Assembly (NCBI RefSeq): GCF_003918875.1
Contig: NW_025765303.1
Location: 868,001-932,000, forward strand
Length of the DNA stretch: 64,000 nucleotides
Source: Haliotis rubra
Taxonomy: Eukaryota
Direction of reading: 5' to 3'
Shown here: in pieces, positions 6,001-12,000 of the stretch
Numbering within the stretch: the stretch's first letter is position 1
Layout of the letters: each line of letters opens with the position of its first letter
Position numbers: made by a program

Positions 6001-9000
6001 AAAGAATCAGATGTTACTTACTACATAATTTAAAAATGCACGCACTCTATTGTCAGATAATGTGAGCAGTTAATAATTATCAATTCATTAAATTATTAAA
6101 CTTTTGAAAACTAATTTTGTGGCTTTTGGGGGAATTTCCAAGCATTCTCTTTGTTAAGTAAAACATTCTCTTTACATATAAACCAAAAATGTATCACTTC
6201 CAAATTAGGAAAATTTAGAAAAATATTCACACAGAACATTAACAATAAAAATATGAAACTGTCCTTATTTGACAAACGTGTGATTGATTGAAATAGCTCG
6301 GAAGACAAGCCCTTTTAGTCACGGATGTCATGAGTCACAATGTATAATGATATGTACATGAAATAAATTATGTCTATTTCATAAGGAAATTCATCATCAT
6401 CAGTCAGTAAAGCCATGCTCATGATATGACCTTATAAAGCATCAATAACAAAGAGAATGTTTTTGTATCTGACATGAAACAAACAAAATAAAAACATCAT
6501 TACAAACAAAATGTTCATACTTACATAAAGGATGGTATTAGGGCTAAAATTGTAAATTTTGAAAACATGAAAATACTTTTTTCTAAGCAAAATGGTCATT
6601 CTGAAGCAAACTTTGAACTTATAAATGTCTAAGAGACTGCTCAATGCAATTGTACTGACAATAAAGGTGCACAAAAGAATTAGCTGCAGTGCAAACAACA
6701 GAAAAGCAAGGACAAGCAGCATAGCTGAGATATTTGACTTAGTAGCCAAGACAAGAGAGCTGTGGGGAGCCCGAGGTTTTTGCAGAGAACGATTGTTGAA
6801 TGACGATAAATGTTGGTTAATAAGCTCTGTAGACATCTTTACCTGACAGTATTAGAGTAGTGGAAACCAGTCTAATGCTGTTAGGTAAGATGGCGCCAGA
6901 ACCTAGACTGTTCTCACCATTCCTGCCGCGACGGGCATCTCCGAGTGCGTATGCGTAGCGGTGACATACGTACGTAGCCAGGCGAAAGTGAACACGTACG
7001 AAAGTTGATGTGCTGTTCTGTTAGGCGTGAGGAAGGCCACGAGTGCAAAGCTTGAGTTTATCTCCAGCAACAAATATTTAAGCAGTGGTCGAAGTAGTAT
7101 ACACTAAATTCTCAATGGCAGTATCCCTGTATGAGATCCCTGAACAGACTGCGAGACAAAGGACACAAACTACGTTGATCTGGGATAATCATGTCGAGTA
7201 GCTTTCCTCTACAGCGCTCACCGTCATCCATGTGTGACCGAACAAAGGAGAAGTCCAACACAACTTCCTCGGGAAAAAATCAATCTTCAAATTCAAATGT
7301 AACTCCCTAGAAAAATGTCACTGGCAACAACACAACTCCCAAGCCAAGCAAATCCTCGCTTGAATACCAATCTAACCCAACGACAGGGGAACGACCAACA
7401 TAGCCAACATGTTCTAACTGACGTATCCCGATCCGCTTTCTAAATTTATACCCAAGAGGCCGTTAATGACAGCTTCCATACGACTAAAAACTGGTTTGTG
7501 AGGGCAGTCGACTCTCCCATGTCTCAGTGCATTGCGCGGGCCACTGGGCTCCTATCCCGACCTTCCGACTCGCGACACATCGACCAGAATAACCACAAGT
7601 CATTGTGTGGATGCTTAAATCCTGGAACGTAGCGGCCCTCTTTCGCCAATCCCTACTGAACCGCACCTTTAGAGGGTAGTCAAACCAACACTCTCTCACA
7701 TGAAAAGGAAAACCGGGAGCTATTCGCTCGCTCATCCATTGACTGTTGACAAAGCCTGGCCAAGCAACTCAATCAGCGAGTGGCCTGACCTTTCTATAGT
7801 CTGCCTTTACAAAGTTTACAGCCTTGTTCCCTTGAAGGGTCGCTCAACCTGCTTGATGAGCCAAAACCTGTTCCACAGGGACGTGCCTGAATGCCTTAAT
7901 GCTACTCTTCAGTAGATCACTAGCCACGTAGGTAAAAAAAGTTGTAAAAGGTCACATTGCATAGCGGTCACAAGGATTCAGTAACCAGCTAGCAGTGTAT
8001 GCCTTTCTGTTCGTCAATATTTGCCAGCCATCTAATCTGGCCTCGTCTGCCTGCAAAGCCAGTGTCCCGACTACTAGTGTTACCTTCCCCCGACCACATG
8101 CCCTCCACCGCACAGAAACGCTGTGTCAGATCAGCCCTACGTCAACCCACCATCAAGCCAGCAGACCTAATTTACACAACTACTACACATTCCAATATGA
8201 ACGGTTACCCAAGTCTCCGGGATGTGCACCTATCACGCCAATAAAGGCTGGATTTATAATGGCTGTTACCTGGTTACAGGGATAAACTTTGCTCTGACGA
8301 TACGATGTGATGGCACTGGTTTCCATAGGAACCATATAAACGGGAGGAGGCATTTGGGGCCATTCCGTTCACTTTTTATCTCTAACACTGAAGCATGGCA
8401 GCCTTTTTCAATTAGTCGGCACATGAAACTCTCTGCACTCATCAAGCAAACTCTATAGAATTACAAACTTTTTTAAGTCGGTATTTTGTTTTGACATTTA
8501 ACAACCCTTCAGTTATCCCCTGAAGCTAATCATTAATCTTCTCTCCATTTTAATAAACTATTATTAGCATGTATCAAGCATTTATGGCCCTAAACTCCAG
8601 CTTTCACAAAATATGCTATTAAAATATATTACACCAAGCCAAACAAAATAACACCAAGACTGATAATTTAACATGACTTAATTACCATGTGAATGATCAT
8701 ACCTTCCAATACCAACACCAAACAATATCTGGACTCACGCCAAAACGTCTTTCTTAACGAAATAGTTCATAAATCAAATTTAACCAAGGTATGTCAAAAT
8801 AATATCAGTTAATTAACCATTATGTCATGCACGTATCTGCAAACAAGATTAAAACAGCCACAAGAGAATATTCTTACCAGCTTCCTAATGAAAAGCTAAA
8901 TCTTTAATGGTTCCCACTATGTAAAAACTGTATTGACGATATAAAGAAAGATGGCCTCGTCACATTCCCAGAATAAGCACATTCCGCAAGATCCAATAAA

Positions 9001-12000
9001 TCACATTAATCAATGAAGCACCTGCGCTGCTATGTGTTAACAATGTATGAGACACCAAGTTCCCGACTTGGAGTCGACACCAGCTAAGCCACAATATCAG
9101 ACAAGAATGCATATGTCAATGTATTCAGTTCAATACACGAATCAAGCCTACTTAATTCTCCTCAGCCACTGAGATAAATAAATCTGTTTGTTTATCCTGC
9201 TTTGATAAGTCATGAATTGAAAACAGCTTTGATAGCAATCAAATTTGCTTTGGGCTTTGCAAGCTTATTGCCAAGGGCCTGTGCTCTATCTTATCATACA
9301 AAATCTGATCAACACTCAATGTGCCTCAATAATTTAAACTTGATTATATATATATGACATTTTTTTCTCGTTCTCCTCTGGAGAGTTAATCAGTTAAAGT
9401 GCTTCATTTCTTTGATTACAAAACAAGCCTTGAACAAAATGTAATGCATTTTAATCTAGCTTGAAATGTTTAATGTCAGATTTTTCTACAACATTTTATG
9501 CTAGTGTTTCAGACAAGTAAACTAAGACACCTTGAATGAACTTTGTCGGTAAATATTAATTTTATAGAAAAATACAACCATAAAACTGGAACATTTTTAA
9601 CATATTGTTAGGGACTGTCTCATGCAACTTTATTATTAATGATGCTACACATTTCACAGTGACCTTCAAAGTATCCTCACTAAGCTGTCTCCTACTAGGA
9701 GATAAGAAGAGGATTAAGTAATGGTAATAAATTATGATCTATCGTTATCACTCAAAACCAAACAGATACAAAGGAATTGCCACAATGGTAAGATAAACCC
9801 TTACTGTAGGTTAAATCTAGGCTGACTTGAAACAGCATTTATCCCAGACACATTGGAATTACTATGTGAATGGATTTGCTGTATGCTTTTCGAATCAGTT
9901 ATATCTCATGTATGTCAAATTGTAAGTGGATAACTAATGTCAAATCCTAAAATGTTTTTTCAATATGTTATGCTTCACACAAAACTAATGAGCTGTATAT
10001 TATATGTAAAGTCAAATTACAGTTGATGACTGTAATCTTCATGAGGACTTAATGAAAATATTGTGATAAATTAATACATGTATACAAATGTAACATTTTT
10101 ACAATTAACATATTTAGGTGTCCTTATTACAGGTAATGACTGTATGTCATAATTTTATGACAGAGATGAATTGTAAATGCTTTCCAATCAGAAATGGTGG
10201 GGAATTATTTTGTTGAATTTGGGTTATAAGAATGCCTACAATGCTTTCTAAAATAAGTGTGAAAATGAAAGAATGTGAATCCGGTTATGGGACACATTCA
10301 TACAGGTCAACTACGTGGAATTGAAAGGTCTACCTCTCATGTCGAACACTCAAGTTTCTCATACACGTTCTTACCTGTCGATCTTTTTGAAATTTTAAGA
10401 AGGCTTCTTGAAGGCTTGTTTGTTTTGGTTCCCCCCAGTCTATGACGAATGCATTAGAACGTTTTGAAAGTGTAGACTTTTTCTTTGAGTCATTAGGCAT
10501 GGTTGGTGGTAAAATGTCACATGTCTTACTCTTAGGTTCAGCCATTTTGTCAACATCAGTGACAACTGGTGAGATTTCTCTGGATCGTGTTAGATCTAGA
10601 CGCATATTCACATGCAAGGTTGTGTCCACTCTGTTGGACCAAGTCAATGTCTGCGTCATCACATTCCATAGATTTATCAGTAGAGTGTGTTATGATTGAG
10701 TGAATATCATTGACAGAATATACACCGGGAAGTGCTTTGTTTTGAAGCTGAGCGCCTTGGAAATATGTAAACACTAAGTATGGCGTCGGTTTTTTGTAAA
10801 CTGGGTCTCCATTGGTTAAAACGTTGAACCATCAGCCAATCATATATCATATGTTATATCTAGTTTACATTGGTTACAGAACTCCCACTTTGACAATGTT
10901 CCAAAAGCCTCTTGAATATTTAATCATTGATAGGTGATCAATCGGATATGATCAGTGATCCATGCCATGATCAAAGGATATAAATACCGACTAGACTCAA
11001 CATGACGTAGCAAGAATCTGAAGCACAAATAGAATTCTCCTTGCACATAACGATTGCTTTCCAATATTCCAAAGAAAATAGTTCACTGGGTCTGTAATTA
11101 TAATTATTACTATTTTATTGCAATTAATTTATAACAGACAATGGTTGATAATACCACATAGCAAGACGACAACATTAGTTCCATTTAACCAAGAATGGGT
11201 CCCGGTGAATGATCACAGCGAACAAAATTAATCAATAACTGAAACGCGACCCGTGAGCAATGGATGGGAGATAACTCCGTAGGGCATGTTACCAAAGCCC
11301 AGTTGAAGCATGTTCAGCGTAAATTATGGACACCTTGTCACATTCGCTCTAAATATCAAGTACTCCCAGCAATATAATACTGCTATTCGGAATGTCAATG
11401 GAAAAGATTAATTTTGCAGCAAATATAAAACATAACCTATGAATTACCAGCGAAAACACCCATATGGACCTCAAGTTCTCCAGAAATGTCGATTGGCTTT
11501 TATTTTTCATTTTGACCCGACAACGAACATTGTGATGTTCACAGGATATAAGACAATCACATACATGTGAAAACTCGTTCGCCAGGTAAAGCCACGAGAC
11601 AAAAGCATTTCTAAAGTAATAAATGTTAGATGATATAGTATTAAACTAATGTAAGTTTCAACGTTGTGAATGGAATCACTACATTGTACAGAAAACAGCA
11701 CTACTCCTGGTCTAACATACATGGATATTCAAAGTGCGATATTAAACAACAACCATTCCGACGCTATCTAAAACAGATTCACACGCACAACGTATTTGGA
11801 GGCTAGCTGTTTCGGTTTGGTATTCAGCACTTCTCACACTGAGTGCCAAATCGAAACTCACGTCGTGCATCTTCCAAATATTTATCCGCATATATCTGTA
11901 CTTAGATAACGTACGGATTGTGTTAAGCGTATATCAAATGAAAAATACTCCATAAACGAAAAATCATTTATTTCTACCGTTACTAAGCCAAATTATACTG

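What the first reader, a model, noticed from the sequence alone, without database searches (positions are those of the whole stretch)
6832..10545. mir-8 nested in the intron of a same-strand gene that may be TTLL10-related (possible deep miR-8/miR-200 micro-synteny)
Seen: the mir-8 hairpin lies 3.5 kb downstream of a coding exon ending in a perfect donor on the same strand. Established: the vertebrate miR-200b/200a/429 cluster lies next to the 5' end of TTLL10, a tubulin polyglycylase. Inference: the SLQEAFxKF peptide is reminiscent of ciliary/centriolar proteins. If the host is a TTLL10 or TTLL10-associated gene, the linkage predates the protostome-deuterostome split. I cannot identify the gene from 57 aa.
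Basis: partly seen in the sequence, partly recalled or inferred. Interest (0 to 1): 0.65.

Follow-up and report, generated by a model that had tools for sequence, protein, structure and literature searches.

The report
Abalone mir-8 inside TTLL10's first intron
A mir-8 microRNA gene sits in the first intron of the abalone version of TTLL10, the same host gene that carries the related miR-200 microRNAs in mouse; this ancient pairing is real but has already been published.

Summary
Observation confirmed. Rfam places a mir-8 precursor at 6829-6897 (-) at 60.2 bits (cut-off 47). A coding exon lies on the same strand at 10659/10545-10375 and ends in CAG|GTAAGA, 3,477 nt upstream.

The TTLL10 guess is right. 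The exon is 95% (57 aa) and 92.6% (95 aa) identical to the N-terminus of a 1,507-aa Haliotis asinina protein. That protein's TTL domain hits TTLL10 only: 94 of the 120 listed hits are named TTLL10 and none carries another paralogue's name. No later exon is in the window, so intron 1 is at least 10.4 kb and holds the hairpin in sense orientation. A sharp fall in CpG observed/expected (o/e), from 0.9 to 0.3, at exon 1 fits a transcribed gene body.

The deep linkage is not new. Liu et al. 2025 (PMC11848845, Table 2) list "8~ttll10" as a bilaterian sense-intron origin, and PMC5356520 calls Ttll10 the mouse host gene.

One lead appears undescribed. Its Cys and His are invariant in 221 of 221 sequences. 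The module is fused or adjacent to TTLL10 in ciliates, sponges, cnidarians and molluscs. I found no paper on it. It is a candidate partner or eraser for tubulin glycylation, whose removing enzyme is still unknown.

The parts
6829..6897 (-). mir-8 (miR-8/miR-200 family) precursor hairpin. The 5p arm starts at about 6892. The 3p arm TAATACTGTCAGGTAAAGATGTC ends at about 6832.
   Evidence: Rfam RF00241 at 60.2 bits against a gathering score of 47, full model. MFE -36.2 kcal/mol, z -5.39, 0 of 200 shuffles fold as well. The plus strand is below the cut-off.
10375..10659 (-). First coding exon of the abalone NlpC/P60-TTLL10 gene. In-frame ATGs lie at 10659, 10605 and 10545. The last 14 codons encode SLQEAFLKFQKDRQ.
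   Evidence: tblastn of P0002 residues 1-95 gives 92.6% identity at 10659..10375, and P0003 residues 1-77 give 80.5%. The 57-aa part is 95% identical to P0002. The motif is conserved in Oscarella, Hydractinia and a EukProt transcript. F87 is present in 141 of the 141 family sequences that cover that column.
10373..10374 (-). GT splice donor of intron 1, in the context CAG|GTAAGA, phase 0 after Q95.
   Evidence: Read from the sequence. Both Haliotis protein models leave the window's reading frame exactly here.
1..10374 (-). Intron 1, at least 10,374 nt, running off the window's start. It is CpG-depleted like a gene body.
   Evidence: No match to P0002 residues 96 onward anywhere in the window (tblastn at E<=10). 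A 9-mer scan found 0 matches with at least 7 of 9 identities. CpG o/e is 0.30 (1-6500) and 0.38 (8501-10374) against 0.89-0.92 upstream of exon 1. Mann-Whitney p = 5.6e-10, 21 windows against 105.
6898..8500 (-). GC-richer, less CpG-depleted block directly upstream of the hairpin. It is a candidate internal promoter or regulatory element for pri-mir-8 (inferred).
   Evidence: The 6501-8500 block has GC 0.45 and CpG o/e 0.70. All 4 of its 500-nt windows exceed the other 17 intron windows (median 0.34), p = 1.7e-4. Window 7501-8000 has GC 0.498, above the window's 99th percentile of 0.484. It holds no Pfam-recognisable ORF and no repeats of 40 nt or more.
10660..11000 (-). Presumed 5' UTR and core promoter region of the host gene. 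The CpG o/e switch occurs here.
   Evidence: CpG o/e rises from 0.47 (10375-10700) to 0.90 (10701-18000). The transcription start site was not mapped. No RFX X-box lies nearby.

Best explanation
The window comes from an abalone (Haliotis or a close relative). It holds the 5' end of that animal's TTLL10 locus on the minus strand. Exon 1 (10659/10545-10375) encodes the leader and the first turns of helix 1 of an N-terminal NlpC/P60-like module. The rest of the gene lies beyond position 1: the NlpC/P60 core, an acidic/Ser-rich linker of about 440 aa, the TTLL10 ATP-grasp domain and a long low-complexity tail. A single mir-8 hairpin lies 3.5 kb into intron 1 in sense orientation.

Most likely mechanism (inferred): RNA polymerase II crosses the hairpin while transcribing the host, and Microprocessor crops it from the unspliced intron. 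The GC-rich block just upstream may add host-independent transcription.

The arrangement is the protostome counterpart of mouse miR-200b/a/429 in Ttll10. It is inherited from the bilaterian ancestor rather than assembled independently.

Shown here: the positions, strand, hairpin identity, exon identity, TTLL10 orthology of the full-length Haliotis protein, absence of exon 2 from the window, and the CpG signature. Inferred: transcription, splicing, processing and the promoter.
For: - Hairpin identity and strand.
- Exon identity. These give 95% identity over 57 aa and 92.6% over 95 aa to H. asinina P0002, and 81% and 80.5% to H. cracherodii P0003.
- Domains of P0002 and P0003: Pfam TTL E 4e-51 and NLPC_P60 at 23.9 bits against a cut-off of 23.
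- TTLL10 orthology: of the 120 listed hits (541 at E<=1e-10), 94 carry a TTLL10 name. Two are 'protein-glycine ligase, elongating', 24 are hypothetical, unnamed or generic, and none is named for another paralogue. This is my count of the listing.
- Paralogue control: solved TTL, TTLL3, TTLL6, TTLL7 and TTLL11 reach only 32-95 bits.
- Exon 2 is absent from the window.
- The gene-body-like CpG depletion starts at exon 1 and spans the hairpin.
- Published precedent: '8~ttll10' under Bilateria in Table 2 of PMC11848845, with Crassostrea gigas and Lottia gigantea among its 34 species (passages). PMC5356520 says 'host gene Ttll10' for mouse (passage).
Against: - There are no RNA-seq or small-RNA data, so transcription of exon 1, use of the donor and production of mature miR-8 are unproven.
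- The downstream exons are not in the window. The intronic status rests on gene models from two other Haliotis species.
- In Batillaria, Tegillarca, Mactra and Mya the NlpC/P60 part and TTLL10 are annotated as separate genes on the same contig. The abalone 1,500-aa models could therefore be read-through fusions.
- The intermediate-CpG, GC-rich block next to the hairpin suggests the miRNA may not depend on the host promoter.
- No X-box was found near exon 1, although a ciliary gene might be expected to have one.
Confidence: 0.8

Rival explanations
1. mir-8 is an independent transcription unit that merely lies inside the host intron. Its primary transcript starts in the GC-rich block at about 6.9-8.5 kb, and its expression is uncoupled from TTLL10. 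This is what is reported for the human miR-200b~429 promoter (recalled, not checked here).
For: The 6501-8500 block has GC 0.45 and CpG o/e 0.70, against 0.30-0.38 in the rest of the intron. All 4 of its windows exceed the other 17, p = 1.7e-4. Its GC is the highest in the window. Liu et al. state that intragenic miRNAs gradually gain independence from their hosts (abstract).
Against: No promoter was demonstrated. The CpG o/e of 0.70 is still below the intergenic 0.9. Conservation of the block could not be tested because no other mollusc genome is on hand. Sense orientation retained since the bilaterian ancestor argues for some use of host transcription.
Confidence: 0.4
2. Exon 1 belongs to a separate NlpC/P60 gene that lies directly upstream of TTLL10, and the 1,500-aa Haliotis models are read-through fusions. 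mir-8 would then be intronic to TTLL10's neighbour, not to TTLL10 itself. The micro-synteny would still hold.
For: Separate models lie on the same contig in Batillaria (BaRGS_00036408 and BaRGS_00036411), Tegillarca (KUTeg_002687 and KUTeg_002685), Mactra and Mya. Stand-alone NlpC/P60 proteins occur in Branchiostoma, Saccoglossus, rotifers, reptiles and fishes. Of the best 150 representatives, 108 show no TTL domain.
Against: - Two Haliotis species give the fused model, and a third Haliotis-like representative, P0263, spans both domains.
- Single ORFs with both domains occur in sponges, cnidarians and Tetrahymena, and in transcriptome-assembled ORFs such as P0030, labelled 'type:complete'.
- Of the best 150 representatives, 42 carry both domains.
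- The Batillaria models are flagged partial.
Confidence: 0.2
3. The adjacency of mir-8 and TTLL10 in abalone and in vertebrates arose by chance or convergence, not by inheritance.
For: None from my calls. I could not inspect other invertebrate genomes myself.
Against: The miRNA family, host orthologue, strand and 5'-most intron or region are the same in a mollusc (this window) and in mouse. Liu et al. infer a single origin at the base of Bilateria from 34 species.
Confidence: 0.03

Closest known systems
Mouse and human miR-200b/miR-200a/miR-429 at the 5' end of TTLL10
   Same: Same miRNA family (Rfam RF00241), same host orthologue and same strand, at the 5' end of the gene. Ttll10 is called the host gene in mouse (PMC5356520, passage).
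   Different: There is one hairpin here. Rfam at E<=1 finds no second one in 1-12000, against a three-hairpin cluster in vertebrates (recalled). The abalone host carries an N-terminal NlpC/P60 module. Among the 120 listed TTLL10 hits, the only vertebrate trace of that module is a 23-bit remnant in the fish protein P0118.
'8~ttll10' intragenic linkage of Liu et al. 2025 (Mol Biol Evol 42:msaf036, PMC11848845)
   Same: This is exactly the relation seen here: the MIR-8 family in the sense strand of a ttll10 intron, dated to Bilateria (Table 2).
   Different: Their species set has Crassostrea gigas and Lottia gigantea but no Haliotis. Which species show the linkage is in supplements I could not open. 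The passages I read do not mention the NlpC/P60 module.
Bacterial NlpC/P60 gamma-D-glutamyl-L-diamino-acid (DL-) endopeptidases (YkfC/dipeptidyl-peptidase VI, MepS/Spr, RipA/RipB, LytE, CwlO)
   Same: The module encoded from exon 1 onward has the same fold. Foldseek gives 44 PDB matches at E<=1e-3, and all those listed are NlpC/P60. The Cys and His motifs are the same: DCC aligns to DCS and HVE to HVG in 3npf and 3pvq. Those enzymes cut amide bonds at a glutamate gamma-carboxyl (established knowledge), which is the chemistry of a glycylation or glutamylation branch point.
   Different: The family here is eukaryotic and cytoplasmic. It has two long N-terminal helices and a C-terminal C-x3-C-x2-H-x-W motif. 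The canonical third catalytic His position is Gly in 212 of 221 sequences (the mapping is my inference). TM-scores are only 0.36-0.44 on the query length. No substrate is known.
CCP (M14) tubulin deglutamylases
   Same: They are a functional analogy only: erasers that oppose TTLL writers.
   Different: The fold and catalytic class are unrelated (metallo against cysteine peptidase). No sequence relation was seen.

Membership tests
mir-8/mir-141/mir-200 precursor family (Rfam RF00241) | Covariance-model score at or above the curated gathering score, over the full model | tested here: met
   60.2 bits against 47, model positions 1-72 of 72, E 7e-11.
mir-8/mir-141/mir-200 precursor family (Rfam RF00241) | Stable hairpin, better than composition-matched controls | tested here: met
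   -36.2 kcal/mol, z -5.39, 0 of 200 shuffles as good.
mir-8/mir-141/mir-200 precursor family (Rfam RF00241) | Mature 22-23-nt RNAs produced by Drosha and Dicer | not testable with these tools
   No small-RNA data. A CNNC (CAAC) lies 17-20 nt 3' of the presumed 3p end (read; the role of the motif is recalled).
Sense-strand intronic miRNA of a protein-coding host | Hairpin lies between a donor and the next exon of the host, on the same strand | tested here: met
   Donor at 10374(-) and hairpin at 6897-6829(-). No later exon of P0002 or P0003 is anywhere in the window.
Sense-strand intronic miRNA of a protein-coding host | The host transcript really spans the hairpin and is spliced | not testable with these tools
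   Indirect support only: CpG depletion from exon 1 to position 1, and gene models from two other Haliotis species.
TTLL10 (elongating tubulin/protein polyglycylase) | TTL-type ATP-grasp domain | tested here: met
   Pfam PF03133 E 4e-51 at residues 791-1088 of P0002. The domain is in the orthologous full-length protein, not in the window.
TTLL10 (elongating tubulin/protein polyglycylase) | Closest relatives are TTLL10 orthologues rather than other TTLL paralogues | tested here: met
   Of the 120 listed hits, 94 are named TTLL10 and none is named for another paralogue, at 414-692 bits. TTL, TTLL3, TTLL6, TTLL7 and TTLL11 in the PDB score 32-95 bits. No tree with paralogue outgroups was built.
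TTLL10 (elongating tubulin/protein polyglycylase) | Adds glycines to already monoglycylated tubulin | not testable with these tools
   This needs an enzyme assay. The activity was shown for Xenopus TTLL10 in PMC12340829 (passage).
NlpC/P60 papain-like cysteine peptidase superfamily | Sequence and fold match | tested here: met
   Pfam PF00877 at 23.9 bits against a cut-off of 23. Profile against PDB sequences gives E 3.2e-6 to dipeptidyl-peptidase VI. The AF2 model has pLDDT 96.1. Foldseek gives 44 matches at E<=1e-3, and all those listed are NlpC/P60.
NlpC/P60 papain-like cysteine peptidase superfamily | Catalytic Cys and His present | tested here: met
   C157 and H223 are present in 221 of 221 family sequences. 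They align to the DCS Cys and the HVG His of 3npf and 3pvq.
NlpC/P60 papain-like cysteine peptidase superfamily | Third polar triad residue (His, Asp, Asn or Glu) about 12 residues after the catalytic His | tested here: inconclusive
   By my reading of the canonical HVGIY...IHA spacing (recalled), the position is G236, which is Gly in 212 of 221 and Ala in 9. The invariant E225 or another residue may substitute.
NlpC/P60 papain-like cysteine peptidase superfamily | Hydrolase activity and substrate | not testable with these tools

The most novel reading that the evidence does not exclude
The exon in this window opens an ancient eukaryotic NlpC/P60-like cysteine peptidase that has been the built-in or next-door partner of the TTLL10 polyglycylase since before animals. 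It is fused to a TTL domain in Tetrahymena, sponges, cnidarians and abalone. It is adjacent to TTLL10 in other molluscs and stand-alone in amphioxus, reptiles and fishes. Bacterial NlpC/P60 enzymes cut amide bonds at glutamate gamma-carboxyls. This module is therefore a concrete candidate for the still-unidentified tubulin deglycylase, or for a branch-point or chain-trimming editor. On this reading the ancestral bilaterian locus was mir-8 nested in one writer-plus-eraser gene. I found no paper linking NlpC/P60 to TTLLs: 0 papers in each.
Probability: 0.25. Interest if true: 0.85.

Novelty: already known. Interest (0 to 1): 0.45.

Why it matters
The main finding adds an abalone example to a published list of about ten miRNA-host pairs that date to the bilaterian ancestor. 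It also shows that a reader without tools can recover such a pair from raw sequence. That is useful confirmation, not a discovery.

The by-product may matter more. Three sources say that no enzyme removing tubulin glycylation is known: a 2024 paper, a 2025 preprint and a 2026 review. A peptidase module with strictly conserved catalytic residues, repeatedly fused to the polyglycylase, gives that old question a specific protein to express and assay.

The module also reframes the locus. The intron that houses mir-8 separates the leader exon from the peptidase exons. Loss or split-off of the peptidase in vertebrates may therefore explain why miR-200b/a/429 now sits at or just before the 5' end of a shorter TTLL10.

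Tried and rejected
- Pfam on the 57-aa peptide and on the 119-aa open frame found 0 families at E<=10.
- Neighbour-gene synteny inside the window could not be assessed. Of 109 stop-to-stop ORFs of 75 aa or more, none passed a Pfam curated cut-off. The only hits were sub-threshold: a DDE_3 transposase remnant at 44609-45070(-) at 23.7 bits against 28.6, SprT-like, Ig_F54D1_6, and low-complexity hits at 36978-37382(-). I found no comparison with the vertebrate TTLL10 neighbourhood to make.
- The 1,310-aa ORF at 37350-41279, open in all three frames, is a minisatellite and not a gene.
- A second miRNA near mir-8 was not found at E<=1 in 1-12000.
84 of the 89 one-mismatch matches are minisatellite copies.
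- Repeats of 40 nt or more in 1-12000: none.
- The PDB holds no TTLL10 structure.
- The Iyer et al. 2009 amidoligase paper, the likeliest place for a TTL-NlpC/P60 remark, is not held. Its content is unchecked.
- Model coordinates are not exposed, so Cys-His geometry was not measured.
Only one exon of the gene lies in the window, and it was searched on its own.
I did not inspect mir-8 neighbours in other molluscs, annelids or amphioxus directly. Supplements of PMC11848845 that list the species with the linkage are closed.

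
Full report
**What is in the sequence**

The window is AT-rich (GC 0.39). It carries one 164-base N run (18174-18337) that I left as it is. Rfam finds a full-length mir-8/mir-200 precursor at 6829-6897 on the minus strand, at 60.2 bits against a gathering score of 47 and E 7e-11. The opposite strand scores 43.2 bits, below the cut-off. The 101-nt context folds at -36.2 kcal/mol, with z = -5.39 and 0 of 200 shuffles as stable.

On the same strand, an ATG at 10545 opens 57 codons that end at 10375. 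They are followed by GT at 10374-10373 in the context CAG|GTAAGA. The frame stays open upstream to 10689, with further ATGs at 10659 and 10605. The donor is 3,477 nt upstream of the hairpin.

**Which gene the exon belongs to**

Pfam sees nothing in the peptide. A search among longer proteins returned two hits:
- a 1,507-aa Haliotis asinina protein (P0002; 95% identity over all 57 residues, E 1e-25);
- a 1,497-aa H. cracherodii protein (P0003; 81%).

tblastn of these proteins against the window aligns only their first 95 and 77 residues, to 10659-10375 and 10605-10375, at 92.6% and 80.5%. The window thus comes from an abalone or a close relative and holds only exon 1 of this gene. I made no attempt to find the sample.

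Both proteins carry a Pfam TTL domain (E 4e-51) and a weak NLPC_P60 match, 23.9 bits against a cut-off of 23.

**Is the gene TTLL10?**

Searching the TTL region (residues 735-1105) among shorter proteins gave 541 hits at E<=1e-10, of which 120 were listed. By my count of that listing:
- 94 carry a TTLL10 name;
- 2 are called "protein-glycine ligase, elongating";
- 24 are hypothetical, unnamed or generic;
- none carries the name of another TTLL paralogue.

Identity is 80% to Patella vulgata TTLL10, 59% to Branchiostoma floridae, 56% to Xenopus tropicalis and about 50% to mammals, at 414-692 bits. As a paralogue control, solved structures of TTL, Xenopus TTLL3 (5vlq), TTLL6, TTLL7 and TTLL11 reach only 32-95 bits with the whole protein. 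I did not build a tree with paralogue outgroups.

**Is the hairpin in an intron?**

No residue of P0002 beyond 95 matches the window. tblastn at E<=10 finds nothing, and a scan of all six frames found 0 9-mers with at least 7 of 9 identities to residues 96-320. Intron 1 therefore runs from 10374 off the window's start, is at least 10,374 nt long, and contains the hairpin in sense orientation.

Indirect support for transcription comes from base composition.

| Region | CpG o/e |
|---|---|
| 1-6500 (intron) | 0.30 |
| 6501-8500 (hairpin and block upstream of it) | 0.70 |
| 8501-10374 (intron) | 0.38 |
| 10701-64000 (upstream of exon 1) | 0.89-0.92 |

The intron against upstream difference uses 21 and 105 windows of 500 nt, Mann-Whitney p = 5.6e-10. 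In molluscs such depletion marks germline-methylated gene bodies. That is established knowledge which I recall and did not check here.

The 2 kb that contains and precedes the hairpin stands out within the intron. Its GC is 0.45, and all 4 of its windows lie above the other 17 (p = 1.7e-4). I read this as a possible internal promoter, which is an inference. A CAAC lies 17-20 nt 3' of the presumed 3p end, where a CNNC Microprocessor motif would be expected (motif recalled).

The exon was searched on its own.

**Is the deep linkage new?**

No. Searching the paper library for TTLL10 with miR-200 gave 11 papers. TTLL10 with mir-8 gave 1. [quoted passage not shown]

Liu et al., Mol Biol Evol 2025 (PMC11848845), analysed 34 metazoans including Crassostrea gigas and Lottia gigantea. 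I read the abstract, outline and passages. The abalone locus is a further instance of a published relation.

**A by-product that I could not find in print**

In all of these it is followed by the same 200-residue domain that Pfam weakly calls NlpC/P60.

A library-wide phmmer search with P0002 residues 82-299 found 773 representatives at E<=1e-3 and 187 at E<=1e-30. Of the best 150, 42 also carry a TTL domain by a local HMM and 108 do not. Named relatives fall into three groups:
- Fused forms: sponges (Dysidea, Oscarella, Ephydatia), cnidarians (Hydractinia, Clytia) and Tetrahymena malaccensis.
- Separate models on the same contig as TTLL10: Batillaria, Tegillarca, Mactra and Mya.
- Stand-alone proteins: Branchiostoma, Saccoglossus, Styela, rotifers, Macrostomum, reptiles (Gopherus, Thamnophis, Gekko) and fishes (Albula, Acipenser).

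No mammal appears among the 120 listed. That does not show absence.

Conservation across 221 domain sequences:

| Residue(s) | Conservation |
|---|---|
| C157, H223, E225, Y137, Q181, G200, D201, G229, R238 | 221 of 221 |
| F87 (exon-1 motif) | all 141 sequences covering that column |

A family profile hits Bacteroides dipeptidyl-peptidase VI (3npf at E 3.2e-6, and 3pvq). The alignment pairs LDCC with VDCS and HVE with HVG, the catalytic Cys and His motifs.

An AlphaFold2 model from 93 sequences has pLDDT 96.1 and pTM 0.87. The exon-1 residues begin a 30-residue first helix. Foldseek against the PDB gives 44 matches at E<=1e-3. Every listed one is an NlpC/P60 DL-endopeptidase or a relative of one, with RipB at E 1.1e-5 best. 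TM-scores are 0.36-0.44 on the query length.

The canonical third triad position appears to be Gly in 212 of 221 sequences. That mapping is my inference from a recalled motif, so the catalytic mechanism may be a dyad or may use E225.

**What the module could do**

Bacterial NlpC/P60 enzymes hydrolyse amide bonds at the gamma-carboxyl of glutamate (established). Glycylation and glutamylation branch from exactly such a bond.

Three sources say the glycine-removing enzyme is unknown:
- "unidentified deglycylases" (PMC11244163, 2024);
[quoted passage not shown] Searches for NlpC with polyglycylase, with TTLL and with "tubulin tyrosine ligase" each returned 0 papers. The library omits most subscription journals, and the Iyer et al. 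2009 amidoligase paper is not held. Prior mention therefore cannot be excluded.

I rate the module as a candidate eraser or editor at about 0.25. The fusion could equally serve substrate targeting, autoprocessing or an unrelated substrate.

**The rest of the window**

No neighbouring gene could be named. None of the 109 ORFs of 75 aa or more passes a Pfam cut-off, and a DDE_3 transposase remnant is the best hit. The huge ORF at 37.3-41.3 kb is a minisatellite of a 32-bp unit repeated about 115 times.

**Verdict**

The central idea is already known. The interest of the given finding is moderate to low, and it is raised somewhat by the NlpC/P60-TTLL10 lead that starts in this exon.

Noticed in passing
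window 37007-41241 (+): A large minisatellite: a 24-bp unit x16 (37007-37388), then a 32-bp unit of about 115 copies (37437-41131, 77% matches). It is C/T-rich on the plus strand. It explains the strong GC and AT skew at 36-42 kb and the 1,310-aa ORF that is open in all three frames.
   Followed up: partly
window 53957-54025 (+): A tRNA-like match barely above Rfam's cut-off (30.7 bits against 29, E 0.02) with several broken pairs. ARAGORN finds no tRNA anywhere in the window. It is probably a tRNA-derived repeat or a pseudogene.
   Followed up: partly
window 56442-56455 and 62315-62328: A perfect palindromic RFX X-box-like site, GTCGCCATGGCAAC, and a one-mismatch copy, ATCGCCATGGCAAC. Both lie 46-52 kb upstream of the TTLL10 exon. 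They may belong to another ciliary gene's promoter or to a repeat (the consensus is recalled).
   Followed up: no
window 44609-45070 (-): A remnant of a DDE_3 (Tc1/mariner-type) transposase ORF, below Pfam's cut-off (23.7 bits against 28.6).
   Followed up: no
window 18174-18337: An N run of 164 bases (assembly gap or mask), flanked by simple Thr/Ser-coding-like triplet repeats. It was left untouched.
   Followed up: no
P0002 residues 275-284 (outside the window): The NlpC/P60-like module ends in a conserved C-x3-C-x2-H-x-W motif: C275 in 184, C279 in 182, H282 in 176 and W284 in 188 of 221 sequences. It might bind a metal, and it has no counterpart in the bacterial enzymes that the profile aligned to.
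   Followed up: no
P0118 (Aldrovandia affinis TTLL10, outside the window): This fish TTLL10 model starts with a 36-residue remnant of the NlpC/P60 module (23.4 bits, E 2.5e-7). It hints that the two parts are still adjacent or spliced together in some vertebrates.
   Followed up: partly
P0059 (Hydractinia TTLL10-like, outside the window): The model repeats pieces of both domains: a second NlpC/P60 C-terminal fragment at 342-377 and a duplicated start of the TTL domain. This is probably a gene-model or assembly artefact.
   Followed up: no
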